Positions 2,231 to 22,651 of a DNA stretch of 64,000 bases are shown piece after piece; positions within the stretch are counted from its first letter, which is position 1, and each line of letters opens with the position of its first letter. A program made the translations under genes and the position numbers. The notes below the pieces were generated by a model that ran no database searches, was not told the DNA's origin, and saw only the letters and a list, made by a program, of their open reading frames with translations. The stretch is from a virus (Duplodnaviria > Caudoviricetes): the IMG/VR virus record IMGVR_UViG_3300020399_000132, positions 1 through 64,000 of that record. One strand, written 5' to 3'.

Positions 2231-2684
2231 AATCCCCATCATATTTGTGAAGTGTTTCTGCCTTAGCTATAACTAAATGAGCAAACCGAGTATTTGGTTT
2301 TACAGTAGTTTCACCACCAATATTATACAAAGTCGCACCTGCATAATCTTTAAATCCTGAATCATATATTGAACTAATAATTAAAACTCCATTCCTATTA
2401 AAAGTACTCCTGCCGAGAAGAATTGCAATTTCACCTTCTGCTATATTTACATGTTGTTTAGACTGAATTTCATAACAAGCACCCTGATCTAAAACAAAGT
2501 TACCATTTTCATCGACTTTTTGTTCTATTGATTTTCTATGTTCTTTTTTATCTTCATCCATATGCATTGGTCCTCGACCAATTTTAAAAACCTTATCGAC
2601 TCGTAAATCAACAGTATTTGGTTGAATCATTGTTTCATCGATATTTGTAACCTCAGTAGAGGCATTCACGGGATGTATAAACAT
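2214..2684 (-). CDS. dUTPase/dCTP deaminase family protein
   Basis: QPNTVDLR, GRSTFNRNG, YDSGF motifs; terminal YDGDY. Confidence 0.8.
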   Translation of the reverse strand: MFIHPVNASTEVTNIDETMIQPNTVDLRVDKVFKIGRGPMHMDEDKKEHRKSIEQKVDENGNFVLDQGACYEIQSKQHVNIAEGEIAILLGRSTFNRNGVLIISSIYDSGFKDYAGATLYNIGGETTVKPNTRFAHLVIAKAETLHKYDGDYGEKN

Positions 2685-3295
2685 TATTCTCCAAAATGAT
2701 AGGGATTTTCTTTTGTTTCAAATTTCCACTTTTCTTCTAAAACATCAGTTCCATAATCTAACTTCCACATTATATTTGGTACTGCTGGTGTTGATCCTTC
2801 AAACTTAGTTGAAGAAAAAGAAGCACCGTCTTTAAACAAAGGACTGATTTCGTTACGAAAAACATATATTTGATTTTCATGATATAACATGCAAGCAAAA
2901 GTTCCATCTACTTCATTTAGATCTTCATTTAATGCTTGATCAAATAACCATTCCGTATCCCAATCACCTTCAAATTTTCCTTCTTTAATAATACCATTAT
3001 GCCACAAATATGATTTGTCTTTTTCAGCAGGATGAATAAATCTACCTGTTGCTAAATCAGTATTATTAACTTCTTTTGATGTTGGTGCTTGTTGATGCAC
3101 TACACAATAATCCCAATTTCCATCTAATAAATCTAAATCTAAAGGCCCGTAAGATTTTGTTTGAGATTTAAGGTCTAGACCATCATCGGTATACAAAAAC
3201 TGAGAAACCGAATGTGATTCTTCCCCGCGGTATCTATTTAGGTCAACTAATTTGAGTAAAAGCTTTTTATCTTTACTTGCTGAAATACTACACAT
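2684..3295 (-). CDS. class II (Ntn) glutamine amidotransferase-like protein; the GAT half of a Gat-QueC-like pair
   Basis: N-terminal MC nucleophile, NxYRG, HQQAPT, HP, LWHNGII, WDTE, DGTFAC, RNEISPL; coupled to queC. Confidence 0.8.
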   Translation of the reverse strand: MCSISASKDKKLLLKLVDLNRYRGEESHSVSQFLYTDDGLDLKSQTKSYGPLDLDLLDGNWDYCVVHQQAPTSKEVNNTDLATGRFIHPAEKDKSYLWHNGIIKEGKFEGDWDTEWLFDQALNEDLNEVDGTFACMLYHENQIYVFRNEISPLFKDGASFSSTKFEGSTPAVPNIMWKLDYGTDVLEEKWKFETKENPYHFGE

Positions 3296-4031
3296 GCCAG
3301 TCTATCTCTTTTTGATATGGAATTGGATCCGGATCACCAATATTCATAAATGCCTTAATACGTTCACTACATGAAGGACATACTCCACAACTTTTTCCTT
3401 CTACATCCGGATCATAACAAGTTAAAGTATGTTGTAATAAATTGTATGTTCTCAATTCTTTACAAATTTTAAGTTCTTCTGTTTTGCTCAATAAAGAAAA
3501 CGGTGCAATAATTTTTGTTTTAAATGTTCTATTTAAAACTGTGATCTCATTAAGTGCATCAACAAAAGCTTGACTAGTATCCCAATAACCATATTCATCA
3601 TGAACTTGAAGACCACAAAAAATATATTCCGCCTTTACCACTTCTGCAAAAGCACAAGCATTACTCAATAACATCATATTTCTAAATGGAACATATGTTA
3701 CGGGTTGAGGATCTCCTAATACTTCTTTAATGTCAGGCATATCAATATCAGTACCAGATATATTTGCACTAATAGGTTGAACTAATTCTCCAAAATAACC
3801 AATATCTAATTGTTTATGTGCCACCCCTAATTCTCGACATAAGTCTTTTGCTTTTCCGCATTCAGCTACTTGTTTTTGTCCGTAATTAAATGTTAAAGCA
3901 AATACTTTTTCTGGTCCATAATGCCGGGCCAACATCATTGTAACAATAGAACTATCCATGCCGCCTGATAATATAACAGCGACATTATTTTTAATCTCTG
4001 GAAGTTTATTTCTGGCTTCTTGTAAATTCAT
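3288..4031 (-). CDS. queC: 7-cyano-7-deazaguanine synthase QueC
   Basis: LSGGMDS PP-loop, FNYGQK, TYVPFRN, TLTCY...CGVCPSCSER zinc site; ATG start at 4031. Confidence 0.93.
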   Translation of the reverse strand: MNLQEARNKLPEIKNNVAVILSGGMDSSIVTMMLARHYGPEKVFALTFNYGQKQVAECGKAKDLCRELGVAHKQLDIGYFGELVQPISANISGTDIDMPDIKEVLGDPQPVTYVPFRNMMLLSNACAFAEVVKAEYIFCGLQVHDEYGYWDTSQAFVDALNEITVLNRTFKTKIIAPFSLLSKTEELKICKELRTYNLLQHTLTCYDPDVEGKSCGVCPSCSERIKAFMNIGDPDPIPYQKEIDWHV

Positions 4032-4032
4032 A

Positions 4033-4263
4033 TTAACCTTCTTCAACAGTCTTGATTAATCTTTCAAGATACCATTTTGATTTTTTTAAATCTTCTAATT
4101 GTTTTTCTTTATTTTCATAACCCTTTTCCGTTTTCTTACCAGCTCGTAATACATACTTAACAATATTACCACGATGAAAATTTAAATCAAACGCTTCTAT
4201 AACATCAATTGCTTCTAAGTTAGTATTACTTTGATAATGTTCGGGGTCTATTTTATTAGCCAT
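4033..4263 (-). CDS. DUF3310-like phage protein
   Basis: PEHY, EAIDVIE, GNIVKYVLRAGKK, EDLKKSKWYLERLI; start taken at MANK. Confidence 0.8.
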   Translation of the reverse strand: MANKIDPEHYQSNTNLEAIDVIEAFDLNFHRGNIVKYVLRAGKKTEKGYENKEKQLEDLKKSKWYLERLIKTVEEG

Positions 4264-5128
4264 GCGTTCCTGAATATGTAAAATATTTGTAATAATCCAA
4301 ATCCTTTGGATATTTTCTCTCGGGAAATTTACCTGTAACAATTTGTCTGAAGGTATCAACATTATAATATAAAAGATCTAAATTAATATCTTCTTCTTTC
4401 ATATTATAAACAGAATCAAATGTTGATTTCGGTTTTTGTGTCAATCCATGAATACCTGCATAAGGGGTACCATCTAATGCTGACATCACCGGATTAGAAG
4501 TATCTATACTATGAATCCAGTCATAGTCTCTATAATGCGCAAACTCTCTTGCTTGCCAAGTCCCCAATAAATGATGTCTGTATTCTTTCCTGATACATTC
4601 TCTATCCATTTTCTCAAGTAATTTAATTCTTTCATTTGCTTGAAGAGTCGGGTCTTTATCCTGCCAAGAATAAACAAAAGGAATACCAATTATTGGCCAG
4701 AGCTGACCACCTCCAGCTTTTCCTTCACCATATTCAATAAATGCATTATAACATTCAATCATTTCATCTGGTGTAGAACCTTGAATGACCGGCATAGCAT
4801 GAGTAGAAGTAATGGGATAATCATTAGCAAATTCAAGAGACCTTTCCAATGTTCTTTTTTTGTCTCCAAGGACATCTGGCAAAACAACATAGTTTGGTTC
4901 TAATCTTTCATACCAATCATAAAGAATATCATTATCTAATGATTCTCCTAATTCAAAACAACTATTATCAAGATAAGTAAATTCTCCACAACCTGCGAAT
5001 TCACAAACCATCTCTGCATAATTTTTATCTTCTAGAATTTTGTGAAGCAATACAAATTGATAATCGCTAATAAAATCTTGATGTTCATCAATTAAACATC
5101 TGGGAATTTCATGTGAAATATATGTCAT
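4256..5128 (-). CDS. TGT-fold guanine transglycosylase-like protein (DpdA candidate)
   Basis: LDNSCFELG, VLPD, PVIQG, HHLLG and SIDTS align in order with TGT barrel motifs; lies between folE and queC. Confidence 0.7.
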   Translation of the reverse strand: MTYISHEIPRCLIDEHQDFISDYQFVLLHKILEDKNYAEMVCEFAGCGEFTYLDNSCFELGESLDNDILYDWYERLEPNYVVLPDVLGDKKRTLERSLEFANDYPITSTHAMPVIQGSTPDEMIECYNAFIEYGEGKAGGGQLWPIIGIPFVYSWQDKDPTLQANERIKLLEKMDRECIRKEYRHHLLGTWQAREFAHYRDYDWIHSIDTSNPVMSALDGTPYAGIHGLTQKPKSTFDSVYNMKEEDINLDLLYYNVDTFRQIVTGKFPERKYPKDLDYYKYFTYSGTHG

Positions 5129-5129
5129 G

Positions 5130-5807
5130 TTAACTCATTAAAGATCTACATCCAGCTAAAAATTCTCTACGACATTCACCGTCTTCGAATTGCCCTGATG
5201 CTGAAAATGTAGCTGTTGAAGATCGAAGATCTTGTATGCCACGGGATTTGACACAAAAATGTAAACCATCAATTTGAACGGCAACATCTTCTGTTTCGGC
5301 AACAAGCGCAATCGTCGCGCGTATTTGTTCTGTTAGTCTTTCTTGAACTTGTGGTCTTTTAGAAAAGAATTGAACTATTCGATTTAATTTTGAAAGCCCC
5401 AAAACTACATCATTAGGAATATATGCTACAGACGCTACTCCATCAATAACAATAAAATGATGTTCACAATATGATTGAACATTAATATTTCTTTCAAGAA
5501 CAAAAGAACCCCTATAATTCATTGAATTTTTAATTTTTGTACATTTTGGAAATCTGTCATAATCCATACCCCAAAAAACCTCATTAACATACATCTGAGC
5601 AACTCTTTTTGGTGTATCACATAATGAATCATCTTCAAGATCTAATCCTAGATCATCCATAATTTTTTCAAAATGTCCTTCAATATTTTTAATAGATTTT
5701 TCAGAATTAAAATTTCCTCGCTTCATTGGAGTTTCTAATCCTAAAGAAATTAAATGCTCATTCACTTTTCGACCCAACTCTGGATCGCATTTTCTACGTA
5801 CTTCCAT
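5130..5807 (-). CDS. folE: GTP cyclohydrolase I
   Basis: DTPKRVA, SYCEHHF, GLSKLNRIV, RPQVQERLT, HFCVKSRG. Confidence 0.96.
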   Translation of the reverse strand: MEVRRKCDPELGRKVNEHLISLGLETPMKRGNFNSEKSIKNIEGHFEKIMDDLGLDLEDDSLCDTPKRVAQMYVNEVFWGMDYDRFPKCTKIKNSMNYRGSFVLERNINVQSYCEHHFIVIDGVASVAYIPNDVVLGLSKLNRIVQFFSKRPQVQERLTEQIRATIALVAETEDVAVQIDGLHFCVKSRGIQDLRSSTATFSASGQFEDGECRREFLAGCRSLMS

Positions 5808-5834
5808 TTTCTCCTTATTTTAATTTATTGTTAT

Positions 5835-5863
5835 ATTATATAATATTATAAGTACAATGTCAA
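5835..5863 (-). promoter_or_regulatory. perfect sigma70 consensus promoter driving folE and the downstream deazaguanine genes
   Basis: TTGACA-17 nt-TATAAT; AAGGAG RBS before folE. Confidence 0.85.
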
Positions 5864-5918: not shown

Positions 5919-6122
5919 TTATTTTTTGCACTCGTCGAATGATATAATGTTACCGCGGGCATCAAGTTTAATTTTTTTAATACCAAATCGGGTTTCCATA
6001 CTTTTCTTTTTTCGATCATCAGAAGCTATATGATCAAGGTCTTTCCAATAGTTATTCATCTGTGTGACTTTTTGTTTTGAAGTCATTAAACGTTCTAAAA
6101 AATTTTTAAAAGTTTTCATCAA
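5919..6122 (-). CDS. small basic hypothetical protein
   Basis: 67-aa ORF with MKTFKNFLE N-terminus, typical of T4-like head-associated small proteins. Confidence 0.6.
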   Translation of the reverse strand: MMKTFKNFLERLMTSKQKVTQMNNYWKDLDHIASDDRKKKSMETRFGIKKIKLDARGNIISFDECKK

Positions 6123-6631
6123 TCGTGCTCCAAAAATTTAACTCCATCTCGTTCTTCTAGAAGTTTTCTATTTTTCATATGTTCTGCTTCAATTTCCTCT
6201 TTACTTCCACCAAAATAGCCAACAGCATAACCATGTTCACACATCCATTTGTTTACATTGGTCCAGCCCGAAAACTCGTGGCCATCTTCGGTACAATTAA
6301 TCCAGAGTTCTCCGAGAATTCTTCCGAATTTACCTCTACTGTCTTTCTCTGGACATCTAACTTGAACTTCGATATCATCCCTGTCCGACACAATTGCCCA
6401 ATGTAACCACGACTTGAGGGCGGTCGAGGAGAGTTTTCCGTAAAACTTTTCTGCCAAATCACGAGTTCTTGATTCTGGTGTATCGATTCCCAACAAACGG
6501 ATTCGTCCACAATACCTAACATCGAACCCCAAATCAATAACTGCATCAACAGTATCTCCATCTACAACCCTCTCTATTGCCGTTATGTGGTAAATAAACT
6601 CACATGGATTATCGTTTTTATATTCAGCCAT
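6119..6631 (-). CDS. staphylococcal nuclease (thermonuclease) family protein
   Basis: VVDGDTVD, RIRLLGIDTPE, GKFGRILG. Confidence 0.9.
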   Translation of the reverse strand: MAEYKNDNPCEFIYHITAIERVVDGDTVDAVIDLGFDVRYCGRIRLLGIDTPESRTRDLAEKFYGKLSSTALKSWLHWAIVSDRDDIEVQVRCPEKDSRGKFGRILGELWINCTEDGHEFSGWTNVNKWMCEHGYAVGYFGGSKEEIEAEHMKNRKLLEERDGVKFLEHD

Positions 6632-6649: not shown

Positions 6650-7002
6650 TTTGTAGCTGACCGTGCTTCTGTTCCCAAGTGACGGCCACAACTCGGCTAT
6701 ATTCTACGCAGCGATTGCGTAAGAGTATGCAGTATAATCGTCATTGTTTGCGATTAGTTTGATGGACCGTTACGGTGGTACCTCTGCCGGATATCTCTTT
6801 ATCTTACTTCACAATCAATCGAAATCTATTTCAGCCCCATCAACGAAAGTCATATCCAATAAAAAGTGTGGCATAAGTAATACCTAATGCGAGCAATATA
6901 ATTATTGCGAGCCACATTAATTTCTTTTCCATAACTTCCTTTGGTGGAGCTGATCGGAATCGCACCGATGTCTTAACTGTTATCTAGATATGTCAACGAT
7001 AT
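6650..7002 (-). ncRNA. ssrA: circularly permuted (two-piece) tmRNA: acceptor piece ~7002-6942, coding piece 6838-~6650
   Basis: Acceptor piece ends GACATCGGTGCGATTCCGATCAGCTCCACCA (T-arm, A discriminator, CCA). The downstream piece starts GGGGCTGAAATAGATTTCGA, forming the GGGGCUG/CAGCUCC stem with G3-U70. Tag frame 6751-6704 reads ANNDDYTAYSYAIAA*, followed by pseudoknot-forming pairings CCGAGT/ACTTGG and TGGCCGT/ACGGTCA. Outer ends are approximate. Confidence 0.9.
6840..6932 (-). CDS. 30-aa single-pass membrane peptide encoded inside the tmRNA intervening segment
   Basis: AAGGAAG RBS directly after CCA; MEKKLMWLAIIILLALGITYATLFIGYDFR*; stop lies 1 nt before GGGG of the coding piece. Confidence 0.65.
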   Translation of the reverse strand: MEKKLMWLAIIILLALGITYATLFIGYDFR

Positions 7003-7652
7003 CATCTATATTTATTAACCCATGGAACTCTCATAGAAATATCTTTTTTTTCAGATATTCCAGTTGATTGACCCTTATTAAAAAGAACTATGGGATAATC
7101 CAATTCTTCGTAATTAGAAAAATGTGCTGAATAATAAAATTGATCTGGTATACGAATAGGGTCTAATTTTTTCATCCAAAGATATGTATCAAAGCCGCCA
7201 TATTTTTCAATATCTTCAAATTCAAATTCTTCCCAAATTTTTAAACTTGTATTTGGTTTCCATCCTAATATTGAAGAATTATACGGAGTACATAATATAT
7301 TTCTATTTCTTTGATCTTCGAAATTATCCATATGTTCCCTCCAACGGGCCCACGGAGCACATAGATAATCTTGTTTTTCTACCCAATCAAATAAACTATC
7401 TATATTACCTTTTATTACAACATCTAAATCAAATGCTAAAACAACATCTTCTGTAAACTGTTCTATTATTGGTGAATGATATAAAACTTTGGTCCACCAT
7501 TTAGGAAGAATTGGTTCATCAAATACACGAAAATTTATATTATAAGTAGTATTTTTAAATACCATTTTTTCTAAACGTTGTATATCTTTAATAGTATATT
7601 TGTCTCCTACACATATACATGCAACGGCTCTTCGTATGCAATTTATTGCCAT
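7002..7652 (-). CDS. GT-A fold glycosyltransferase-like protein
   Basis: CVGDKY, KWWTKV, FDLDVVI (DxD), YNSSILGW, GGFD. Confidence 0.7.
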   Translation of the reverse strand: MAINCIRRAVACICVGDKYTIKDIQRLEKMVFKNTTYNINFRVFDEPILPKWWTKVLYHSPIIEQFTEDVVLAFDLDVVIKGNIDSLFDWVEKQDYLCAPWARWREHMDNFEDQRNRNILCTPYNSSILGWKPNTSLKIWEEFEFEDIEKYGGFDTYLWMKKLDPIRIPDQFYYSAHFSNYEELDYPIVLFNKGQSTGISEKKDISMRVPWVNKYR

Positions 7653-9755: not shown

Positions 9756-10497
9756 AACTGCTCCACATGTCAAGAGCCCAACCTTTTGCTTCATGCAACT
9801 CTACATGAGTTTCATTAGGTTTCGCCCATTTTTTATGAGAAGTATTAAAAAGACATATCTTATAATCAGATCTATATTCTGTTGGATTTAAATCATCTGA
9901 ATATTTACAACCTATATTATAATTATATACATTTCCTGGTAACCAAAAATCTAAATTATTTTTTCTATGTTCCTGATAAAACAAATATTTGTCATATGAG
10001 GGATATGTAAAGAAAGCCTTTTCCTTATTTCTAACTAGCCTCTCATACATATCAAATCCAACATCGTCCTGCCAGGAAACAAAAGAAGAATTAATCGGAG
10101 TCGTCATATATCCATAATTAATTTTTGCTGCTTCATTGTTTCTCCAATAATTCCAAATATAAGTTACCTTATTCTTTTTTCTGTCTACTAGATCGGTTAT
10201 ATTATTTTGAATTAAGATATCTAAATCAAACCAAGCCTTAGGTCCGGAGACATGTTTATATCTATCGAAATAACACATCTTTTCGGATGTAAATATTTGT
10301 GTCCTTGGAAATTCGGAAAAATCATCTGGTATACTTTCTATTTTTATATCTGGATCTATACCAGTTGAATTATCAGTAAGACATGTAAAATTAAAAGGAT
10401 TATTATAATGTTTTTTAAGACTCTTGAAAAGCCTATTAACATATAATCTATTATACTTGGTTCCCCATTTCAAACAATAAAAATTTGTCATTTCCAT
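9742..10497 (-). CDS. GT-A fold glycosyltransferase-like protein
   Basis: CLKWGTKY...YVNRL, FTCLTD, FDLDILI, INSSFVSW; paralog of 7002-7652. Confidence 0.75.
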   Translation of the reverse strand: MEMTNFYCLKWGTKYNRLYVNRLFKSLKKHYNNPFNFTCLTDNSTGIDPDIKIESIPDDFSEFPRTQIFTSEKMCYFDRYKHVSGPKAWFDLDILIQNNITDLVDRKKNKVTYIWNYWRNNEAAKINYGYMTTPINSSFVSWQDDVGFDMYERLVRNKEKAFFTYPSYDKYLFYQEHRKNNLDFWLPGNVYNYNIGCKYSDDLNPTEYRSDYKICLFNTSHKKWAKPNETHVELHEAKGWALDMWSSYDRI

Positions 10498-11528
10498 TGA
10501 TCTCTAAAAGCATCAAAACCTGATCCACACTTCTCAGCACATACTGTAGATTTACCATCTGCACAAGAAGATATATTCCAACTTTTTTGTAATTTTTTAA
10601 AGAATCCACCTTCAATAATATTTCGGAGAGGTGTATGAAGTGCATTAATATCTTTTAAATCATCGAAATATGACCATATCTGATTTTCACCTATTTCTTG
10701 ATAAGCTTTATAAAATCTACCTGCTGTCCAACAACAGGGAGTTACTAAACCTTCAGCACTTATATATATTTCATTATTATCTAATGACTTACATGTAATT
10801 TTTGTTTGATCTAAATACTTTTGAAAGGAACCATGACTCTTAATCAATTTATCATAGCTGTTAACGCTCTTATTCTGATTTTCTGGATTAGTTGGTGGCT
10901 TAATCTCATTCCCCTTAGTGGTTATCTTTTTATCAACTTTCTTACCTTTATAGCTTTGTACCCACCTACCAGTTTTTTTTCTTACAAATTCGAGTCCGAA
11001 TAATTTAGCCATTCTTTCCGCTTCTTCGACTTGATGTTCATTATGTTCAAAAATTAAATATACCCAAATACCCTTACCGCCGGCTTGAGTAAATACATCC
11101 ATGGCATGTTCTACCTTTTTCCAATTTACATTAACTCGATATAAATGATTTGTATCTTCTAAGCCATCTACACTAAAAGTAACCTTTCCTCTAGATCCTA
11201 ATATTAAAACTAATTCTTTCCACCAATCATCATCTCTAGCTCCAGCATTTGTAGTCATATGAAGATACATTTTAGGATTATTAACTCTAAGATATCTAAA
11301 AATGGAAAGCGTATCATTAGACACAAGTGGGTCTCCATGATTACCACACATCAATAAAGAATTTAATTGATGAACAAAATCTATATCAACCATGCTCATG
11401 AAATTATTCAAAGATAATTCAGCATTTTTCATATGTCGATTATTTGTCCTGTCACACATCGGGCATTGTGCTTGACATCTTTGTGTTGGTTCTAAATGAA
11501 TATGTTTTATTTGATCCGAAATATACAT
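10488..11528 (-). CDS. radical SAM enzyme with C-terminal SPASM/Twitch-like domain
   Basis: CQAQCPMC, CGNHGDP, FSVDG; C-terminal C..YISAEG.V.PCC...C..KC. Confidence 0.92.
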   Translation of the reverse strand: MYISDQIKHIHLEPTQRCQAQCPMCDRTNNRHMKNAELSLNNFMSMVDIDFVHQLNSLLMCGNHGDPLVSNDTLSIFRYLRVNNPKMYLHMTTNAGARDDDWWKELVLILGSRGKVTFSVDGLEDTNHLYRVNVNWKKVEHAMDVFTQAGGKGIWVYLIFEHNEHQVEEAERMAKLFGLEFVRKKTGRWVQSYKGKKVDKKITTKGNEIKPPTNPENQNKSVNSYDKLIKSHGSFQKYLDQTKITCKSLDNNEIYISAEGLVTPCCWTAGRFYKAYQEIGENQIWSYFDDLKDINALHTPLRNIIEGGFFKKLQKSWNISSCADGKSTVCAEKCGSGFDAFRDQWK

Positions 11529-12647
11529 TTAATAAAAACTTTCAAACTCTGGCCACTCATTAAGTAAATTAGTTTTATTTCTTTTATCACATAATTTAAG
11601 AAAATTCATTCCTTCTATAAAAATATTATTATCAACCGGAATATTTAATTTTAATAAATTTTTTATATCATCAGAAATATATCTTTGATTTTTGCCTTGA
11701 TATAATTTTTTCACTCCGTTTGGCAAACAATCTATTGTAAAATAACCGGGAACAACTAATAAATTTGATAATGGTGATAATATATTAAAATTCTCTTTTA
11801 AATAAATTTGTATCTCATCTAAGTAACCAACATTTAATGTTTGAACCGTAACTTCAAATCCTATAGGATATGTTGATTGTAATTTTTTAATATTCTCGAT
11901 CTTTTTTTTCCAAACAGTTCCGGTTCTAATATATTCTTCTTTTTTATCAATCCCATCTATAGAAATATTAAAATATAATTTTTTAAATGCTTTTTTATAT
12001 TGAAATAAATGTCCGGGAATTTTTGTGGCGTTAGTAAGAGTAGATATTTTTATTTTTTTTGAAAATCCATGACCGATAAGCCACTCTAAAAAATCATAAT
12101 AACCATCGGTCATTAGCGGTTCGCCACCCGAAATAATTATTCTTGTTACAGAAGGTAAAATCTCTTTTAAATCTTCATAAGTTTTTTTATTAAAAGTATT
12201 TTCATATATTGGCCATTCTCCTTCATTATATTTTTCCTTATGTTGCGACCAGGCGGACGAAGATTGTGGACCGCACATCAAACATTTGAGATTACATAAA
12301 TTTCCAAATTTAATTTTAAAGGTTGGGTTATTGGGAATTAATTTTTTGCCTTGTTTAAATTTTTCTACTTGTCCCTCATAATCATTCTTTAAACTTTCTT
12401 TTCTTCTGGAATTCAATCCGCGATCTTCTCGTTTCCAACAGGATTGACAAATATCTAATCTTTTATTTTCTAAAAAAGCTTTTCTTTTATCGTTGATATA
12501 ATCAGAATTAAAATATTCTAAAATAGAATACTTATCACTGAACATTTTAGATTCACCTAGATTATCACAGCATAATTGATATTCATTAAATGAAGAAACA
12601 GTAAATTGTGTAAACGGGAGAGCGCAGAAATTTTTTAATTTTTCCAT
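11529..12647 (-). CDS. radical SAM enzyme with N-terminal Twitch-like Cys domain
   Basis: N-terminal FCALPF, CC, CQSCW..E; CNLKCLMC, SGGEP, TNAT, SIDG. Confidence 0.92.
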   Translation of the reverse strand: MEKLKNFCALPFTQFTVSSFNEYQLCCDNLGESKMFSDKYSILEYFNSDYINDKRKAFLENKRLDICQSCWKREDRGLNSRRKESLKNDYEGQVEKFKQGKKLIPNNPTFKIKFGNLCNLKCLMCGPQSSSAWSQHKEKYNEGEWPIYENTFNKKTYEDLKEILPSVTRIIISGGEPLMTDGYYDFLEWLIGHGFSKKIKISTLTNATKIPGHLFQYKKAFKKLYFNISIDGIDKKEEYIRTGTVWKKKIENIKKLQSTYPIGFEVTVQTLNVGYLDEIQIYLKENFNILSPLSNLLVVPGYFTIDCLPNGVKKLYQGKNQRYISDDIKNLLKLNIPVDNNIFIEGMNFLKLCDKRNKTNLLNEWPEFESFY

Positions 12648-13663
12648 AGAGGAAATTTATTTTCAGGTTTTCTTTTTGGAATTTTACTATCTGCAGAACT
12701 TACACAATTATCAGTTATGCAAGGCATGAGCTTATCAAATAATTTAAATCCGGTTTCAATATTTCCTAGAGGTACATCTGAGCAAGAATATGACCGCTTA
12801 ATGCTCCCACAAGGCTCGCGTATAATAATACTACGATACCCCGACGAACAGATCCAGCCTTTGAATTCATTAAAATTAAACGCATTAAATCTCTCAGCTT
12901 GATCCACTTCATATATATTTCCTTTTGAATCTACTAAATCTATTTCACGTTCTGTTGGTCTGGAATCATTATGTAAAATATCTAACTGTCCTTGTGTATA
13001 TCCATCTACAACTTTTGTAGCTGTCGGATTTGATTGTGGTTTTAGTGTTGTGTGTATACCACGATCTTTAAAATATAAAACATGTTCTGTTAGTTCCCAA
13101 AATCTTTCCGGAATCATCACCATATTAATTGTTATTCTAATTCCATTATCTTGAAGGAAAACTAATTTATCAGCAAAATCTGCTATCTTATCTTGTGTAT
13201 TTAAAGCTTCAAAATGTGCGGAAGCAGTAATAGAAGCCTTATCAAATTTATTCGCGTATTTAATATATGTTTCAAACCATTTTATTTTACGAGAACAATT
13301 TGAAGTCATATGTATGCGCTGACGATTACAATTATCTTCATCATCTGCAAGGTGTTGTAGTATATCCAAATAGCCGGGATGAAAGGTCGGCTCTCCTCCG
13401 GATAAAGACCAATTGAAAGAATTAAATCCTTGTTTTCTTGCTTGTTTTTTTATGCTATCAATTGTCTTAATACAAAGTTCAGTTGGTCTATGATCTTTTT
13501 TATCTGATCTAGCATACGGCCAACAATAGGAACATTTGTAATTACAAAATCTACCTAACAACCAAGATATTGTAAACGTATCTCGATACAACATTGTTTT
13601 AGTACCGAGAGCCTCAATATCCTTCCATGGTATTTTTGTAAAATCTTCTTCATTGTGTCGCAT
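12635..13663 (-). CDS. radical SAM enzyme with C-terminal Cys-rich domain
   Basis: CNYKCSYC, SGGEPT; FKGWIC...SC...PC...C. Confidence 0.92.
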   Translation of the reverse strand: MRHNEEDFTKIPWKDIEALGTKTMLYRDTFTISWLLGRFCNYKCSYCWPYARSDKKDHRPTELCIKTIDSIKKQARKQGFNSFNWSLSGGEPTFHPGYLDILQHLADDEDNCNRQRIHMTSNCSRKIKWFETYIKYANKFDKASITASAHFEALNTQDKIADFADKLVFLQDNGIRITINMVMIPERFWELTEHVLYFKDRGIHTTLKPQSNPTATKVVDGYTQGQLDILHNDSRPTEREIDLVDSKGNIYEVDQAERFNAFNFNEFKGWICSSGYRSIIIREPCGSIKRSYSCSDVPLGNIETGFKLFDKLMPCITDNCVSSADSKIPKRKPENKFPLWKN

Positions 13664-14561
13664 GAACAAAATCAAATTGTTTAGGTGTATAATTCATTAA
13701 ATTCATTTCATTATCCATATCCCATAAAGGGGCTGTCAATGTGTGAACATTTTTAAATTTTCCTTTAAATCTTGCATACACCTTTGTTATTAATTCTTCA
13801 TACTTTGGCAAATACATAATTTTAATTTTACAAGGTAAATTTACTTCTTCACAAAATCGTTCTAATTTATTAATATATCTATCATTAATAAATTCTGGAT
13901 GTATTGAAAAATTTATCAATGAAAGTTTATTTAATTCTTTTAAATAGGATACTTGCCTGGTGCCGTTAGTTAAAGTCCAAATTGTCGCTTCGGGTACTTT
14001 TTCTTTTAACCATTTTACAAAATCTATATAATGAGGAATAAGAGTTGGTTCTCCTCCTGAAATAGTTATTTTTTTAACATTTAAGGGATTAACTTTGGTC
14101 CAGGCTTCTTGCATTCTCTCCAAGGAAGTCCAGGAGCCTTTATAATCATGGCTACGAGGGTCACAATAAGTGCAGCTGAAATTACACCTACGATCAGTAT
14201 AATAATCAACGGCAACACCAACATCACTCGTAACAGCGTAAATTTTATCATGGGGTTCTAACTTTCCTTTTAGTCTCATATTGTCTATCATTAATAAATG
14301 ATCTTCGGTCCGACCTTTTGGCATCGCTATATCAGTACCACAAAAACAATTTTCATTAGGACATACTATTGTTTTAGGTTCTGTATATTCATCTATTGAA
14401 ACCGGATAAGGTGTCCTACATACCGCAGTGCCTACCTCCCACCATGCAGCATCAATAATATAATTCGTTTGTTTACAATGCCATCCTTTAAAATTAGTTC
14501 TATTTTTAATAGTTTGATCATCACAAGATTTTAAACCATGGTCGGTTAAAACTTTAAGCAT
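13650..14561 (-). CDS. radical SAM enzyme with N-terminal (permuted) Cys-rich domain
   Basis: FKGWHC...C...CPNENCFC at the N-terminus; CNFSCTYC, SGGEPT, TNG. Confidence 0.9.
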   Translation of the reverse strand: MLKVLTDHGLKSCDDQTIKNRTNFKGWHCKQTNYIIDAAWWEVGTAVCRTPYPVSIDEYTEPKTIVCPNENCFCGTDIAMPKGRTEDHLLMIDNMRLKGKLEPHDKIYAVTSDVGVAVDYYTDRRCNFSCTYCDPRSHDYKGSWTSLERMQEAWTKVNPLNVKKITISGGEPTLIPHYIDFVKWLKEKVPEATIWTLTNGTRQVSYLKELNKLSLINFSIHPEFINDRYINKLERFCEEVNLPCKIKIMYLPKYEELITKVYARFKGKFKNVHTLTAPLWDMDNEMNLMNYTPKQFDFVHATQ

Positions 14562-15568
14562 TTAGAGACCTCGTAATATATTTCTTCACATTTATTTGGA
14601 AGATAATCCCTTTTATTCATCCAGTTAATTAATTTAATGCAATAATTTTTATCGAATACATTTGTCTTTAAGAAATTTATTATTTCTTTCTGTAAAAAAT
14701 TATTATTATTATTTATTATAATATCTTTTACGCTAGAAGGTAAATAAGATGCGTTTAACCATTCTGGTGCGTCTAAAAAATCATATGATATAGTATTATT
14801 GGTTATCCCTTTTGATTCTATCCACTTAATCGTATCAGTTAAGTCTGTGCTATTAAGGGTATGAAAGACGTAATGAGGTATTACGAAAAAATGCTTTAAT
14901 TGTTTATCAAAATTTCTTTCAAATCGAGACCATTTAGTTCCATATCTAACGAATTCTGCTACATCACCAATTCCGTCAATACTAACATTATAATTCAAAC
15001 TCTTGAATCTGGTAAGATATTCTCTCCATTTTTCATTTGGGAAAATAGAATTATTTGTAACAATCATTAAATTAATATTTTCAATTTTAAGAGTATTAAA
15101 CAATTCTAAATACAGTGGATCCATAAATGGCTCACCACCAAGAATTTTTAAATCTTCTAACTCACTTAAATCTAAATCTGGTAATGAATTTTTATGTAAT
15201 TTTCCACCAATTGCCGAACTGAATTTGGAATTACAACCCATGCATTTAAAATTACATAAATTGGAAGCGGAAAATTCTAATTCCTTTATTTTTGGATTTT
15301 GAATATATTTTTTATCATATTTGCTATTGAAATTTTTGCGATAACTAGGTTTGCCTATTTCGTCATCTCTATAACATTTTTCGCAACCCTCAATCCATTC
15401 ATCTTTAAGCATTTTTGATCTAAGGTCTATATTTTCAGGACCATTAAATGCTTGAAATAGACTATCATATTTTGGATAAATTCTTTTATCAAAAATGCAA
15501 CATGGATTTATTTCTCCAGACGGATTCAATTGTATATGAGTAAAGGGCGCCATGCAAAAATGTTTCAT
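14546..15568 (-). CDS. radical SAM enzyme with N-terminal Twitch-like domain
   Basis: FCMAPF, PCC, CEKCY; CNFKCMGC, LGGEP, SIDG. Confidence 0.92.
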   Translation of the reverse strand: MKHFCMAPFTHIQLNPSGEINPCCIFDKRIYPKYDSLFQAFNGPENIDLRSKMLKDEWIEGCEKCYRDDEIGKPSYRKNFNSKYDKKYIQNPKIKELEFSASNLCNFKCMGCNSKFSSAIGGKLHKNSLPDLDLSELEDLKILGGEPFMDPLYLELFNTLKIENINLMIVTNNSIFPNEKWREYLTRFKSLNYNVSIDGIGDVAEFVRYGTKWSRFERNFDKQLKHFFVIPHYVFHTLNSTDLTDTIKWIESKGITNNTISYDFLDAPEWLNASYLPSSVKDIIINNNNNFLQKEIINFLKTNVFDKNYCIKLINWMNKRDYLPNKCEEIYYEVSKCLKF

Positions 15569-16968
15569 TTTACGCGGACCAATTCATTATGTTCATCTAT
15601 TTGATAATTTTGAAAATAGTCATTGAAATTTTGATTCCATACCATATCAGATTTTTTTCTATAAATTAAAAATCTATTATATTCATGATATCGTGGTTTA
15701 AAGCTTTTAATATATTTAACTATGCGATGTAATTTTTCCAGAGTCTGTTCATGCTTTACCCAATACATGTGTCCAGTTTTTTCGGAAACTCTGTCTATAG
15801 GTTTATCAAAATATGATTTAATTAGTTCCTCTGTTTTTTCTATATCTTTCATTGTTTCTTTTTCAAAATCTAATAATATCAATGAGGGATCTAAATATTT
15901 TGGGGATTGCACTATGGATATATTCACAGATGCTTCTAAACTTATAAAAGATTCAAATACATCATAAATGTCCAGCATTTGATATATTGATGTTGTACAT
16001 GTAATATCCAACCAGGTATAATCATTATGTTCTCTAAATTTTTTAATATTTTTTTCTAATTGATCCCATGTTCCACCATTCCTAAAATAAGAATAAAATG
16101 TCCTGCCGGCATCAACCGATATTGTAATGGTAGAGGTATTAAATGGTAATAATAATTCAGATAATTTAACAACATCAAAATCAGAATTAAAATTAGAATG
16201 GAAACTAAGATGTATATTAGAAGCATTAGGGTGATCAGCTAACTTTTTTAATACTGGAAGAAATTGTTTTTGGTATAAAAGTTCTCCACCTGCAAAATTA
16301 ATATGTTCCAGATAAGGAAAATTTTCATTCAAATCATCGACTATTTGCAAAGCTTGCTGGACAGTCAGAGCCATTTCATAATCATCATTAACATCTTTCC
16401 TATGCTCGGTTCCTAATAGTTGTTTTAAATCGTATAGGTGAGTTTCTTCATCTGGTATAAAATTTTGAAGCTTCTTTGACCATCCGGAAGAAAATACTTT
16501 AGAACAATGTATGCAAGCAAAATTGCAAGCATTACTAAATCTAAGTTCTATATGTCTCAATCCTTCATTTCTCACATAATGAGTTTCTGGATCGTAACAC
16601 TTTATTAAAAAATGCTCCTCTGGGCAATGTTCCTTATGAAATTCTTCATAAAATTGAACAGTATATATGTTAGCGTCTTTGGGAGGTTTTCCCTGATCCT
16701 TATAAAAACTACCATTCTTTTCTAAAGTAAAATCCTGCCTCATAGAAGGGACGCCAACCGCCTCCATTGATTCGCAAGTATCACACCCTTTAGGCCATTC
16801 ATCATTGTGAAGTTTTCTTCTCAACTCTTTAAAATTTTCATGATTATAAATTTCCGAAGGTAAAAAAGTATCTTTTTGGAAAACTAATTGATCTGCCTGC
16901 CTTGGACAACAAGAAACAGTTCCGTTTTTATAATTTATTCCACCCATTGCATAAAAACATTGTTTCAT
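15565..16968 (-). CDS. radical SAM enzyme with N-terminal Twitch-like domain
   Basis: SCC, GCDTC..E; CNFACIHC, AGGE, SVDA. Confidence 0.9.
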   Translation of the reverse strand: MKQCFYAMGGINYKNGTVSCCPRQADQLVFQKDTFLPSEIYNHENFKELRRKLHNDEWPKGCDTCESMEAVGVPSMRQDFTLEKNGSFYKDQGKPPKDANIYTVQFYEEFHKEHCPEEHFLIKCYDPETHYVRNEGLRHIELRFSNACNFACIHCSKVFSSGWSKKLQNFIPDEETHLYDLKQLLGTEHRKDVNDDYEMALTVQQALQIVDDLNENFPYLEHINFAGGELLYQKQFLPVLKKLADHPNASNIHLSFHSNFNSDFDVVKLSELLLPFNTSTITISVDAGRTFYSYFRNGGTWDQLEKNIKKFREHNDYTWLDITCTTSIYQMLDIYDVFESFISLEASVNISIVQSPKYLDPSLILLDFEKETMKDIEKTEELIKSYFDKPIDRVSEKTGHMYWVKHEQTLEKLHRIVKYIKSFKPRYHEYNRFLIYRKKSDMVWNQNFNDYFQNYQIDEHNELVRVK

Positions 16969-17390
16969 ATCATATCTCCATAAATTCTTTCACTATATCT
17001 ATACCAATCTGGTTTCATATCTATTTTTTCTTGAAGTCGAATTTTTATTATTTTAAGATCTTTATCATTTGGTTTCCAATTTTTATATAATTCATCTGGC
17101 CATTGTTCTCTTTTAAACACGCGCGATGGATCTGGTTTCATTCCTCGCATTTTCATTTCTTCAATTAGTTCCAAATATCTATCATGTAAATACTCACCTT
17201 TATTAAAAAAGAATTTAATGTGGCCCTTATTTAATGTATAATCTTTCGGTAACGTTTCTTTTGTTTCATTCCATTTTGGGGATTTTAATGAACGCTGCAA
17301 TGCCGAGCCTACCATAAAGATTTCTCTATATTCTGCAACTAAATGTTGGTCAGCTAATTCTTTTGGTTTTATTATATTAATTCTTGTCAT
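16965..17390 (-). CDS. denV: pyrimidine-dimer DNA glycosylase (T4 endonuclease V-like)
   Basis: MTRIN, L.DQHL.AEYRE, GHIKFFFNK..YL..RY..L..EM..RG, KPDWYRY. Confidence 0.93.
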   Translation of the reverse strand: MTRINIIKPKELADQHLVAEYREIFMVGSALQRSLKSPKWNETKETLPKDYTLNKGHIKFFFNKGEYLHDRYLELIEEMKMRGMKPDPSRVFKREQWPDELYKNWKPNDKDLKIIKIRLQEKIDMKPDWYRYSERIYGDMI

Positions 17391-18313
17391 ATCTCTTTAT
17401 CTATAAAAATATCTCTTTTTTTAACCTTACAAGTCTTCCAACATTTTTCTACTGGTGAGGGCCATGACCAAGATTTTTGTATAAGATCAAACATTTCACC
17501 ATCAATAACTTCTGATATAGTATTATATTTTAAATTGTTTGCTAAAATTCCTCCGGAGCCAGTCCAAATTTTTCCAAATTTAGTTTTTCCTTTTCTGGTA
17601 GCGGCTATTTCCAAAGCCTCGGAATTTAAATAACAACAAGGTAGCAATGCTCCGGTATGATTTATAAATAATCTTTTTTGATTACCATATTTACATTGAA
17701 TTTCTTTTTCTTCTTCCACTTCTTTTTTTACCTCTCCGCTTCCTCCTCTATGAGAAAATATTGCTCTGAATCTTTTAAACCCTTCCTCTTCCGACATTCT
17801 TTCTGCATCATCAAATAAGTGCTCGTTATGGTCAAACACAATAAACTGCCAAGTTGCATTGCCTCCTGCTCCTATAAAGGCTCTCCAATTTTCTTGCACT
17901 TTTTTAAAATTAGAACCGATTCGATATTTTACTAATGATTCCTGATCTGTTCCATCTAATCCAAAAAATACTGAGGCCCCTAGTTCACCCAACTCCTTCC
18001 AAAATTCTTTTGTTTTGGTAGACCCATTAGATGCAATATTAACATCTGTAAAAGATTTAAAATGTCTTACAATTTTTAATATATCTGGATGAAGGGTGGG
18101 CTCATCTACGGAACCACAAAAATTTAATAATTTAAGATTAGGAAATTCTTTAGAGGTAATCCATCTTTTAAGATCTTCAAAATCAATAATATTTTTATTT
18201 AAAATAGATTCAACTTGTTCTTTCTTTTCTTGCCTAAGACAACCGGGGCATGCTATATTACAAAAGCTAGTTAATTCTACATCAATCCACTCAATTGTTT
18301 TATTATTCCACAT
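17387..18313 (-). CDS. radical SAM enzyme with C-terminal SPASM/Twitch-like domain
   Basis: CNIACPGC, CGSVDEP, GLDG, WQFIVF.HNEH, PCC, C..TC. Confidence 0.92.
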   Translation of the reverse strand: MWNNKTIEWIDVELTSFCNIACPGCLRQEKKEQVESILNKNIIDFEDLKRWITSKEFPNLKLLNFCGSVDEPTLHPDILKIVRHFKSFTDVNIASNGSTKTKEFWKELGELGASVFFGLDGTDQESLVKYRIGSNFKKVQENWRAFIGAGGNATWQFIVFDHNEHLFDDAERMSEEEGFKRFRAIFSHRGGSGEVKKEVEEEKEIQCKYGNQKRLFINHTGALLPCCYLNSEALEIAATRKGKTKFGKIWTGSGGILANNLKYNTISEVIDGEMFDLIQKSWSWPSPVEKCWKTCKVKKRDIFIDKEI

Positions 18314-19289
18314 TTTTTATAACTGCACGTTTCCCATTATCTCCGCAAGTAAGATAACATCTCGGTAAATGCATAGGGTGCATTTTATTCCAACTCGCCT
18401 CTAACTCATTTTTATACCAATTACTTTCTATTATATCATTAATTGATCTTTTAGTCAAGTCATTAAAATCATGGCCGATTTTTTCATATAGGTGATCTAT
18501 ATCATTATTTTTATGGGCGACTGATTCATCATATAAATGACAACAAGGCCATAATCTTTTATTGGCCCCAATATAAAGTTCACCCTTTATTTTATGCCTG
18601 CACATAATCTTAGCATCTTCATATTGTTTTGTCCGCGCTCTTTTTTCAACCACTTCATATGAATCGGAATCTATTTTATTGGCAGCTTTAGAAGTTACTT
18701 TGTTTTTTTCAGAAGTGTTTCTCCAACTTACTCTAGTGGCAAATTTCATTCCGTTTTCTTTTGCTTTTTGCCTAGCCATTTCAACTTCGTCTTCATTATA
18801 ATCAAAAATGATATACTGCCAGATGCTATGGCCGCCAGTAGAATGGTAAGCACGTATATTATCCCAAACTCTATCCAAGATAACATTTTCCCTGTAATCA
18901 TTTCTTGTAACTCCATCAACCGCCCAATGAATATAAAATCTTTTATTAGATTGTTTAGATAGTACGCCTAAATCTTTCCAAAATTGAGCGGGGCGAGTTC
19001 CTCCATTTGTGGACATTTCAAGATCGCGAACATTTTTTTCATACAAAAAATAAAATATTATTTCATATAGTTCTGGATTAATCATTGGATCACCCAGAAC
19101 ACCACACATCTTTATTTTAGTATTAGATATATCAAGAGGTTCAAACCAATCTATTATATCATCTAAAAGAAGATTTCCTTTATAATAATATTTTCCTCGA
19201 TTATCAAGAATGGTTCTCATACATCCGGAACATTTTGCATTACAAAGAGAAGATAATTCTATTTCTATAATGTTTATATCAAATTGCAT
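18303..19289 (-). CDS. radical SAM enzyme with C-terminal SPASM/Twitch-like domain
   Basis: CNAKCSGC, CGVLGDP, AVDG, WQYIIF.YNE, WPCC, C.LTC. Confidence 0.92.
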   Translation of the reverse strand: MQFDINIIEIELSSLCNAKCSGCMRTILDNRGKYYYKGNLLLDDIIDWFEPLDISNTKIKMCGVLGDPMINPELYEIIFYFLYEKNVRDLEMSTNGGTRPAQFWKDLGVLSKQSNKRFYIHWAVDGVTRNDYRENVILDRVWDNIRAYHSTGGHSIWQYIIFDYNEDEVEMARQKAKENGMKFATRVSWRNTSEKNKVTSKAANKIDSDSYEVVEKRARTKQYEDAKIMCRHKIKGELYIGANKRLWPCCHLYDESVAHKNNDIDHLYEKIGHDFNDLTKRSINDIIESNWYKNELEASWNKMHPMHLPRCYLTCGDNGKRAVIKNVE

Positions 19290-22650: not shown

Positions 22651-22651
22651 A

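What the first reader, a model, noticed from the sequence alone, without database searches (positions are those of the whole stretch)
6839..6941. The tmRNA intervening segment is itself a mini-mRNA for a 30-aa membrane peptide
Seen: the 103 nt between CCA and GGGG are used almost entirely by AAGGAAG (RBS), ATG, MEKKLMWLAIIILLALGITYATLFIGYDFR and TGA. The peptide has a basic N-terminus and an uninterrupted ~20-residue hydrophobic helix. Known: intervening segments of permuted tmRNAs are generally regarded as short non-coding spacers removed during processing. Inference: one precursor yields an acceptor RNA, a tag-coding RNA and a peptide mRNA, so translation could compete with or be coupled to tmRNA maturation. 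I do not know of a described precedent.
Basis: partly seen in the sequence, partly recalled or inferred. Interest (0 to 1): 0.85.

Follow-up and report, generated by a model that had tools for sequence, protein, structure and literature searches.

The report
Peptide gene inside phage tmRNA spacer
The 103-base spacer that is cut out when this marine phage's two-piece ribosome-rescue RNA (tmRNA) matures carries a conserved 30-codon gene for a small membrane peptide inside a conserved hairpin, and related phages use the same spacer as a slot for other small genes, which no paper I could find describes.

Summary
Confirmed. A circularly permuted tmRNA lies on the minus strand (7003..6704; Rfam RF04321, 109 bits). 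Its 103-nt intervening segment (IVS, 6941..6839) holds a ribosome-binding site, an ATG (6932) and a 30-codon ORF ending in TGA (6842-6840), one base before the coding piece.

Twenty-two distinct 103-nt relatives all keep the frame. pN/pS is 0.42, against 1.0 and 1.4 in the other frames. Synonymous changes number 54 against 31±5 expected (0 of 5000 shuffles reach this).

Its 5' strand contains the ribosome-binding site and the AUG.

The ORF is exchangeable, dispensable cargo:
- Other phage tmRNAs carry unrelated ORFs in the same slot, including a 50-59-aa family that also occurs as a free-standing phage gene.
- Some phages keep only the helix.
- A sample of 97 bacterial IVS is short (median about 30 nt) and has no such ORF.

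I found no paper describing this. The closest published analogue is the ORF-bearing IVS of 23S rRNA. Earlier notes of this scan record the same phenomenon in at least 35 other genomes.

The parts
6942..7003 (-). tmRNA acceptor piece (T-arm and 3' acceptor strand, ending CCACCA at 6942). The alpha_tmRNA model extends the 5' end to 7043.
   Evidence: Rfam RF04321 109.1 bits and RF01849 61.7 bits; sequence
6839..6941 (-). Intervening segment (IVS), 103 nt, absent from the mature two-piece tmRNA by analogy with other permuted tmRNAs
   Evidence: Treated as an insertion between CCA and G1 in the Rfam alignment; homologous IVS found in 40+ viral contigs
6935..6941 (-). Shine-Dalgarno-like AAGGAAG directly after CCA. 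The neighbouring nuclease gene has the same motif in front of its ATG.
   Evidence: Sequence. Variable in relatives (AAGAAAG, AGGAATG, AGGGAAG).
6930..6939 (-). 5' strand of the IVS closing helix (GGAAGUUAUG). It contains most of the SD and the AUG.
   Evidence: MFE fold z -2.85; 95% of cells paired in 36 distinct IVS against 40-51% when slid; 6 of 10 pairs with changes on both sides; RNAalifold
6845..6854 (-). 3' strand of the closing helix (UAUGACUUUC). It overlaps codons 27-29 of the ORF.
6840..6932 (-). 30-codon ORF plus TGA: a small single-pass membrane peptide (basic N-terminus, about 21 hydrophobic residues, C-terminal GYDFR)
   Evidence: conservation and synonymous excess; alignment A1
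6839..6844 (-). Conserved 5' leader GUUGAU before G1, the expected RNase P site between 6839 and 6838. Its UGA serves as the ORF's stop codon.
   Evidence: The leader TTGAN is kept in all cargo classes, whether or not it is used as a stop
6658..6838 (-). tmRNA coding piece. It starts GGGGCUG (G3-U70 with the acceptor strand). The tag frame is 6751-6704 (resume codon GCA, tag ending AIAA, stop UAG).
   Evidence: Rfam alignments; sequence
7002..7652 (-). Upstream 216-aa ORF of unknown function. Its stop codon (7004-7002) abuts the tmRNA 5' end. No strong promoter lies between them, so the two are probably co-transcribed.
6119..6631 (-). Downstream SNase-like nuclease gene, syntenic with the tmRNA in many related contigs
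   Evidence: Pfam PF00565, PHROG 452; related loci

Best explanation
The window holds a phage-encoded, circularly permuted (two-piece) tmRNA gene. Its excised spacer is a stem-closed slot that carries a genuine small protein-coding gene, here for a 30-residue single-pass membrane peptide. Shown by sequence comparison: (a) the tmRNA is real; (b) a 10-bp helix joins the two ends of the spacer and covaries across all relatives; (c) the ORF inside evolves under purifying selection on the protein; (d) the cargo is exchangeable and dispensable. Inferred: the gene sits in a long leftward polycistronic transcript. Ribosomes load on AAGGAAG/AUG while the RNA is being made, before the 3' strand of the helix (about 85 nt downstream) is transcribed and locks the SD and AUG away. 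The peptide inserts into the host inner membrane. tRNA-type processing (RNase P at U6839|G6838, trimming to CCA6942) then releases the spacer. The helix mainly insulates folding of the tRNA-like domain from whatever cargo lies in the loop. As a side effect it makes translation of the cargo and folding or processing of the tmRNA mutually exclusive on any one molecule. The peptide's own role (host membrane takeover, exclusion, or a toxin-like or lysis-timing function) is unknown.
For: The tmRNA is real: RF04321 109 bits, G3-U70, tag ANNDDYTAYSYAIAA.
Coding selection: 22 distinct 103-nt IVS keep the frame; pN/pS is 0.42 against 1.03 and 1.43 in the other frames; entropy by codon position is 0.43/0.28/0.63. 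There are 54 synonymous changes among 138 inferred substitutions against 30.9+-4.8 expected (0 of 5000 shuffles). The excess also holds outside the helix (46 against 27.8+-4.4).
More divergent IVS (L125/L144, L025, L139, L037) keep a 27-29-aa hydrophobic peptide with the same W7/small-17/Y20 pattern, although the DNA has diverged.
RNAalifold finds no conserved structure inside the loop, only the closing helix.
Helix: 95% of cells are paired against 40-51% in slid controls, and 6 of 10 pairs have compensatory double changes. The precursor folds into one long irregular hairpin of acceptor stem plus helix.
Cargo nature: the same slot holds a 50-59-aa basic protein family in L005, L027, L036, L051 and L053. 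That family has 20 representative clusters. Its members P0012, P0003, P0017 and P0020 are free-standing genes on contigs with no tmRNA. A second tmRNA lineage, which includes the cultured phage Melnitz, carries further families. One of these, a 38-aa membrane peptide, has pN/pS 0.28. L009 and three other contigs keep the helix with a 12-nt loop and no ORF.
Of 67 phage IVS of at least 100 nt, 65 have a sense ORF covering at least 60%, against a mean of 10 (maximum 16) in shuffles. All 18 representative loci tested have full RF04321 hits.
Bacterial IVS: median about 30 nt, with no such ORF.
Against: There is no direct evidence of transcription, processing sites, ribosome occupancy or the peptide itself.
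The peptide matches no Pfam or PHROG family. No gene with this product is on record. I found no free-standing homologue of this particular peptide family, because the tools refuse queries under 40 aa.
pN/pS of 0.42 is only moderate constraint. Part of the conservation at both ends of the ORF comes from the RNA helix and leader, not the protein.
The SD varies and is weak in some relatives (AAGAAAG). The SD and AUG are predicted to be base-paired in the folded RNA, so translation could be very inefficient.
The distinct sequences are related, so counts are not independent.
Confidence: 0.8

Rival explanations
1. Cis-acting 'leader' ORF. What matters is the act of translating through the spacer: ribosomes melt the closing helix and so time or tune RNase P access and tmRNA maturation. 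The peptide itself is a by-product.
For: The SD and AUG lie in the 5' strand of the helix, and the last codons and the stop lie in the 3' strand and leader, 1 nt from the RNase P site. Unrelated peptides occupy the same slot with the same start position. In one family the frame runs through G1 into the tmRNA.
Against: Amino-acid-level constraint is visible (pN/pS 0.42 and 0.28). One cargo family lives as an ordinary gene elsewhere. Many functional-looking phage and bacterial permuted tmRNAs have short or helix-only spacers with no ORF, so maturation does not need one.
Confidence: 0.1
2. Non-coding spacer. The open frame is a by-product of AT-rich, U-rich composition and RNA-level constraints, and is never translated, like the decaying S23p ORF in the Coxiella 23S rRNA IVS.
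For: A single 30-codon ORF is not improbable in this composition. The ends of the ORF are constrained by the helix and leader. The SD is sequestered in the fold. The ORF has been lost in L009-type variants, and one class C copy (L016) is frameshifted. No expression data exist.
Against: The synonymous excess is specific to one frame and persists outside the helix. No in-frame stop occurs in 22 variants, against 84 and 22 in the other frames. There is no conserved internal RNA structure. Of 67 long phage IVS, 65 are filled by a sense ORF, against about 10 in shuffles.
Confidence: 0.07
3. Type I toxin-like module. The hydrophobic peptide is a membrane-damaging toxin whose translation is held off by 5'-3' fold-back pairing (as in hok or tisB mRNAs) and released by RNA processing.
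For: About 30 aa, one hydrophobic helix and a charged N-terminus. The SD and AUG are occluded by long-range pairing with the 3' end of the same RNA. The Atlas feature search places it among small membrane proteins (YoaK, score 0.85, below the trust threshold).
Against: No antisense promoter or RNA is evident. Other cargo in the same slot is hydrophilic and basic. The helix is kept even without any ORF (L009), so it did not evolve to control a toxin. Toxicity is untested.
Confidence: 0.12

Closest known systems
Circularly permuted (two-piece) tmRNA genes of Alphaproteobacteria and of marine myophages (Rfam RF04321/RF01849; Melnitz and pelagimyophages, PMC9004378; tmRNA database, PMC11915505)
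   Same: Gene order is acceptor piece-CCA, spacer, then GGGG-coding piece. It has a G3-U70 pair and an alanine-resuming tag ending in AA, and it scores as alpha-type. The phage-borne, marine setting also matches.
   Different: Published descriptions treat the spacer as non-coding. The database paper notes only a tRNA-Ala gene and a repeat element in two unusual spacers. Here the spacer is 3-4 times the usual bacterial length and is filled by a selected ORF inside a covarying helix. Melnitz's own spacer also holds an unannotated ORF.
Intervening sequences of bacterial 23S rRNA that carry the S23p ORF (Coxiella burnetii, Leptospira; PMC4990558)
   Same: A stem-closed segment is excised from the precursor of a stable RNA and contains an ORF. 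It is mobile and patchy among relatives.
   Different: The host RNA (rRNA helix 45) and the nuclease (RNase III, shown experimentally) are different. The abstract states that S23p appears not to be made in vivo and is decaying. The tmRNA-spacer ORFs here show frame-specific purifying selection. There is no sequence relation: no Pfam hit.
Homing-endonuclease ORFs in group I introns of tmRNA genes (PMC11915505)
   Same: A protein gene is nested in a part of the tmRNA gene that is removed from the mature RNA and extruded from the structural core.
   Different: There is no intron here. Removal is by tRNA-type end processing of a permuted gene, not self-splicing. The cargo is tiny peptides or small basic proteins, not endonucleases that mobilise the element.
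Type I toxin mRNAs with fold-back inhibition (hok, tisB)
   Same: A short hydrophobic peptide whose SD is hidden by pairing between the 5' and 3' regions of the RNA.
   Different: No antitoxin RNA is seen. The pairing is a feature of the tmRNA spacer irrespective of cargo. This comparison is from general knowledge, not tested here.

Membership tests
Permuted two-piece tmRNA (Rfam RF04321 / RF01849) | Covariance-model score above the curated threshold over the full model | tested here: met
   RF04321 109.1 bits (cut-off 47), model positions 1-213; RF01849 61.7 bits (cut-off 50)
Permuted two-piece tmRNA (Rfam RF04321 / RF01849) | Acceptor piece ending CCA lies upstream of a coding piece beginning GGGG; acceptor stem with G3-U70 | tested here: met
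   CCACCA ends at 6942. GGGGCUG starts at 6838 and pairs with CAGCUCC, giving G-U at the third pair.
Permuted two-piece tmRNA (Rfam RF04321 / RF01849) | Tag reading frame with an alanine resume codon and a hydrophobic ...AA end | tested here: met
   GCA at 6751; the 15-residue tag ends AIAA; UAG at 6706-6704
Permuted two-piece tmRNA (Rfam RF04321 / RF01849) | Precursor is cut into two pieces and the spacer is discarded | not testable with these tools
Protein-coding small gene | Frame kept open in diverged relatives, with an excess of synonymous change specific to that frame | tested here: met
   22 of 22 distinct 103-nt IVS are open; pN/pS 0.42 against 1.03 and 1.43; synonymous 54 against 30.9+-4.8, 0 of 5000 shuffles
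Protein-coding small gene | Ribosome-binding site at the proper distance from the start | tested here: met
   AAGGAAG lies 2 nt before the ATG. The same motif precedes the neighbouring nuclease gene. It is weaker in some relatives, and it is predicted to be base-paired in the folded RNA.
Protein-coding small gene | Evidence of translation (footprints, peptide) | not testable with these tools
23S rRNA-type ORF-bearing IVS (S23p) | Stem-closed segment within a stable-RNA precursor | tested here: met
   Covarying 10-bp closing helix
23S rRNA-type ORF-bearing IVS (S23p) | ORF homologous to S23p; located in 23S rRNA; excised by RNase III | tested here: not met
   No Pfam family matches the peptide. 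The host RNA is tmRNA. The nuclease is untested. This is an analogue only.
Type I toxin-antitoxin | Small hydrophobic toxic peptide plus a cis- or trans-encoded antisense RNA | tested here: inconclusive
   A hydrophobic peptide and a sequestered SD are present. There is no convincing antisense promoter. Toxicity is untested.
Group I intron with nested ORF in tmRNA | Self-splicing intron in the T-loop | tested here: not met
   The Rfam scan of the window gives only the two permuted-tmRNA models. The T-arm is uninterrupted.

The most novel reading that the evidence does not exclude
Phage permuted tmRNA genes are dual-output genes in which RNA processing and translation of the spacer are mechanistically coupled. 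The closing helix hides the SD and AUG and pairs the CCA end with the 5' leader, so a translating ribosome and RNase P compete for each precursor. RNase P cleavage leaves the spacer message ending 1 nt after its stop codon (this window and the 159-nt family). In the Melnitz-type family the frame runs through G1 and stops 42 nt inside the coding piece, so cleavage leaves no stop codon at all. That would be a non-stop message, the natural substrate of the very tmRNA being matured. The phage could thereby set the ratio of peptide to rescue RNA, or destroy the peptide once tmRNA is mature.
Probability: 0.2. Interest if true: 0.85.

Novelty: new variant of a known kind. Interest (0 to 1): 0.7.

Why it matters
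tmRNA is one of the best-studied stable RNAs, and the spacer of its permuted gene form is treated as throw-away sequence. If these spacers encode proteins, then:
- Phage genome annotation systematically misses a class of small genes hidden inside an RNA gene. The GenBank record of the cultured phage Melnitz annotates only the tmRNA there.
- A stable-RNA precursor doubles as a messenger. This gives a natural system in which ribosome loading, RNase P cleavage and RNA folding act on the same 100 nt.
- The slot is a compact, highly expressed, exchangeable site where abundant marine phages keep tiny membrane peptides and basic proteins of unknown role, which are candidates for host takeover functions.
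- Melnitz and its OM43 host are in culture, so the question is directly testable.

Tried and rejected
- ARAGORN found no tmRNA in the window; Rfam did.
- blastn of the locus, and of the Melnitz tmRNA, against cultured phages found nothing beyond Melnitz itself. The phage has no close cultured relative; the best protein hits are 44-63% identical.
- nhmmer with the two tmRNA pieces missed loci that the pattern search found, so I used anchored patterns and later confirmed 18 representatives with Rfam.
- My first two anchoring patterns were too strict and were corrected. One script failed on an empty set.
- Searches for relatives of the 30-aa peptide outside tmRNA spacers could not be run. The search for homologous proteins needs at least 40 aa. 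The search for related loci found no conserved stretch or judged the query too short.
- The exact-product look-up found no record. There is no paralogue in the 177-kb genome.
- Pfam and PHROGs gave no family for any cargo.
- The Atlas feature search gave only a sub-threshold lead (YoaK, 0.85), which I do not use as evidence.
- Two classic papers on two-piece tmRNA (PMC16621, PMC516066) are not held.
- One Rfam call exceeded the size limit and was repeated with fewer loci.
- I considered that conserved internal RNA structure explains the conservation. I rejected this because RNAalifold finds only the closing helix and the synonymous excess is frame-specific.

Full report
WHAT IS THERE. The window is the first 64 kb of a 177,419-bp IMG/VR virus record. 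Genes around the finding all run on the minus strand. Rfam finds a full-length circularly permuted tmRNA at 7003..6704: RF04321 at 109.1 bits against a cut-off of 47, and the alphaproteobacterial model RF01849 at 61.7 bits. ARAGORN finds nothing.

Reading the minus strand:
- The acceptor piece ends CCACCA at 6942.
- The coding piece begins GGGGCUG at 6838. It pairs with CAGCUCC and gives the G3-U70 alanine determinant.
- The tag frame runs 6751-6704 (resume codon GCA, 15 residues ending AIAA, stop UAG).

The peptide has a basic N-terminus and about 21 consecutive hydrophobic residues. The phage has no SmpB gene, so its tmRNA would depend on the host's. It has no close cultured relative.

IS THE ORF MORE THAN CHANCE? 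One such ORF in AT-rich DNA is not remarkable, so I collected relatives. An exact 20-mer from the coding piece, a degenerate version of it, and the neighbouring nuclease protein brought in about 170 viral contigs. Anchoring on CCACCA and GGGG gave 45 distinct spacers.

Twenty-two distinct 103-nt versions all keep the 30-codon frame. Two 104-nt versions carry their extra base between the SD and the ATG.
- In-frame stops: 0, against 84 and 22 in the other two frames.
- Pooled pN/pS: 0.42, against 1.03 and 1.43.
- Column entropy by codon position: 0.43/0.28/0.63.

To allow for relatedness I built a tree of 21 full sequences, mapped 138 substitutions in codons 2-30 by parsimony, and re-dealt each to a random site with the same base. 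Fifty-four are synonymous against 30.9+-4.8 expected (0 of 5000 shuffles). In codons 5-25, outside the helix described below, the count is 46 against 27.8+-4.4 (0 of 5000).

More distant spacers (L125/L144, L025, L139, L037) have diverged in DNA. They still encode 27-29-residue hydrophobic peptides that share a Trp near position 7, a small residue near 17 and an aromatic residue at 20. RNAalifold on 27 of these spacers finds no conserved structure in the interior. RNA folding therefore does not explain the pattern. I conclude that the ORF evolves as a protein-coding gene.

The spacer folds with z = -2.85. IVS positions 3-12 (GGAAGUUAUG, that is most of the SD plus the AUG; 6939-6930) pair with positions -16 to -7 (UAUGACUUUC; 6854-6845).

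Across 36 distinct spacers of all classes, 95% of cells are standard pairs, against 40-51% when the partner is slid by 1-3 nt. Six of the ten pairs show compensatory changes on both sides. RNAalifold recovers the same ten pairs.

In the whole precursor the acceptor stem, three further pairs between CAA and UUG, and this helix stack into one long irregular hairpin with the ORF in the distal loop. The last six nucleotides (GUUGAU) are a leader conserved in every class, and its UGA is borrowed as the stop codon.

THE ORF IS CARGO. The same slot, with the same helix and leader, holds other things in relatives:
- A 50-59-residue basic protein with a conserved C-terminal motif (EHF-K-WD-DLWD) in six spacers of 189-205 nt. 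One copy (L016) is frameshifted.
- A 42-nt spacer in four contigs (L009 type). This is just the helix with a 12-nt loop, and the ORF has been deleted.
- Spacers of 15-45 nt without any ORF.

A profile of the basic protein finds 20 representative clusters among 1.8 billion proteins. Four that I looked up (P0012, P0003, P0017, P0020) are ordinary, tightly packed genes on phage-like contigs with no tmRNA nearby. That cargo is therefore a bona fide gene family that has been captured in the spacer.

A second lineage was reached from the tmRNA of the cultured OM43 phage Melnitz and gives 61 further distinct spacers of 8-304 nt:
- Short spacers without ORFs.
- Helix-only spacers of 50-101 nt.
- A 159-nt family encoding a 38-residue membrane peptide. 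Its stop is again the leader's UGA, and its pN/pS is 0.28 against 1.05 and 1.77.
- 78- and 83-residue proteins.
- A family that includes Melnitz, whose frame runs through G1 and stops 42 nt inside the coding piece. It stays in the same frame across six different spacer lengths.

GenBank annotates only the tmRNA at that place in Melnitz. Overall, 65 of 67 distinct phage spacers of at least 100 nt are at least 60% filled by a sense ORF. The antisense strand gives 18, and shuffles give a mean of 10.4 (maximum 16). All 18 representative loci I tested carry a full RF04321 match.

As a baseline, 97 distinct spacers of bacterial permuted tmRNAs, mostly Alphaproteobacteria, are 3-132 nt with a median of about 30. 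Only seven reach 57 nt or more, and none has a convincing SD-ATG ORF of 25 codons.

HOW IT MOST LIKELY WORKS. Shown:
- a real permuted tmRNA;
- a covarying closing helix;
- frame-specific purifying selection on the ORF;
- exchangeable and dispensable cargo.

Inferred: no strong promoter or terminator separates the tmRNA from its neighbours, and the upstream ORF's stop codon abuts it. It therefore probably lies in a long polycistronic transcript. Ribosomes could load on the SD and AUG during transcription, before the 3' strand of the helix appears about 85 nt later. Once folded, the SD and AUG are occluded. RNase P at 6839|6838 and trimming to CCA would release the spacer.

The helix most plausibly exists to hold the two halves of the acceptor stem together and insulate the tRNA-like domain from the loop's contents. 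Its persistence without any ORF supports that view. A consequence is that translation and folding or processing exclude each other on a given molecule. Whether the phage exploits this is open. The peptide's function is unknown. It is a typical small single-pass membrane peptide, and no family matches it.

COMPARISON AND NOVELTY. Two-piece tmRNAs in marine myophages are known (PMC9004378). The 2025 tmRNA database paper mentions a tRNA gene and a repeat element in two spacers, but no protein genes (PMC11915505). Seven full-text searches and six papers gave no description of a protein-coding tmRNA spacer.

The nearest published analogue is the RNase III-excised intervening sequence of 23S rRNA with its S23p ORF. 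According to its authors, that ORF is probably not expressed and is decaying (PMC4990558). Homing-endonuclease genes in tmRNA introns are a second analogue. I therefore rate this a new variant of a known kind.

After my own analysis I looked at this scan's notes. The same phenomenon has been noted by other readers and follow-up agents in at least 35 other genomes, including one with the same 30-residue family. Their 'stem-closed, swappable slot' reading agrees with what I had found independently. The S23p comparison came from them, and I checked it in the paper's abstract.

LIMITS. The peptide is too short for the homology tools, so I could not ask whether this particular family also lives outside tmRNA genes. 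Sequences within a family are related. The tree-aware test addresses this for the window's family only.

Noticed in passing
L180:1564-1705 (Melnitz-3, MZ577098.1 about 46076-46217): The cultured OM43 phage Melnitz has a 142-nt tmRNA spacer with a 9-bp closing helix and a GGAG plus ATG. Its ORF reads through the RNase P site and stops 42 nt inside the coding piece. GenBank annotates only the tmRNA. After processing this message would have no stop codon.
   Followed up: partly
L184:1501-1677, L188:580-759, L189:148-300, L190:1320-1487: A family of about 50-60-aa basic phage proteins ending EHF-K-WD-DLWD occurs both as free-standing genes and inside tmRNA spacers (L005, L027, L036, L051, L053). 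It has no Pfam or PHROG family.
   Followed up: partly
L009 (42-nt spacer; 4 contigs): A natural deletion variant of the window's spacer keeps the closing helix with a 12-nt loop but has lost the ORF. The tmRNA still scores 116 bits.
   Followed up: yes
L193, L255, L215 and others (159-nt spacers): A second tmRNA-spacer membrane-peptide family (38 aa, conserved WSICAD core) has pN/pS 0.28. 304-nt spacers (L219, L246) hold an 83-aa extended version.
   Followed up: partly
window 1-64000: ARAGORN reports no tmRNA or tRNA in the window, although Rfam scores the permuted tmRNA at 109 bits. Annotation pipelines that rely on ARAGORN alone would miss it.
   Followed up: yes
window 2684-5863 and 10488-23827: A GTP cyclohydrolase I gene and many radical SAM genes lie near the tmRNA (a 7-deazaguanine-type cluster and a large radical-SAM array). 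A perfect sigma-70 consensus promoter lies at 5863-5835 on the minus strand.
   Followed up: no
L180:1886-1934; L212:13402-13456: A glutamine riboswitch aptamer lies directly after the tmRNA in Melnitz (already published) and in one related contig. There is none after the window's tmRNA.
   Followed up: no
G000 (whole 177-kb record): No SmpB gene (PF01668) is present in the phage, so its tmRNA would need the host's SmpB.
   Followed up: yes
L312-L431 (bacterial genome contigs): Bacterial permuted tmRNA spacers of 57 nt or more (for example L379, L366) also begin and end with complementary stretches. A closing helix may therefore be a general feature of longer spacers.
   Followed up: no
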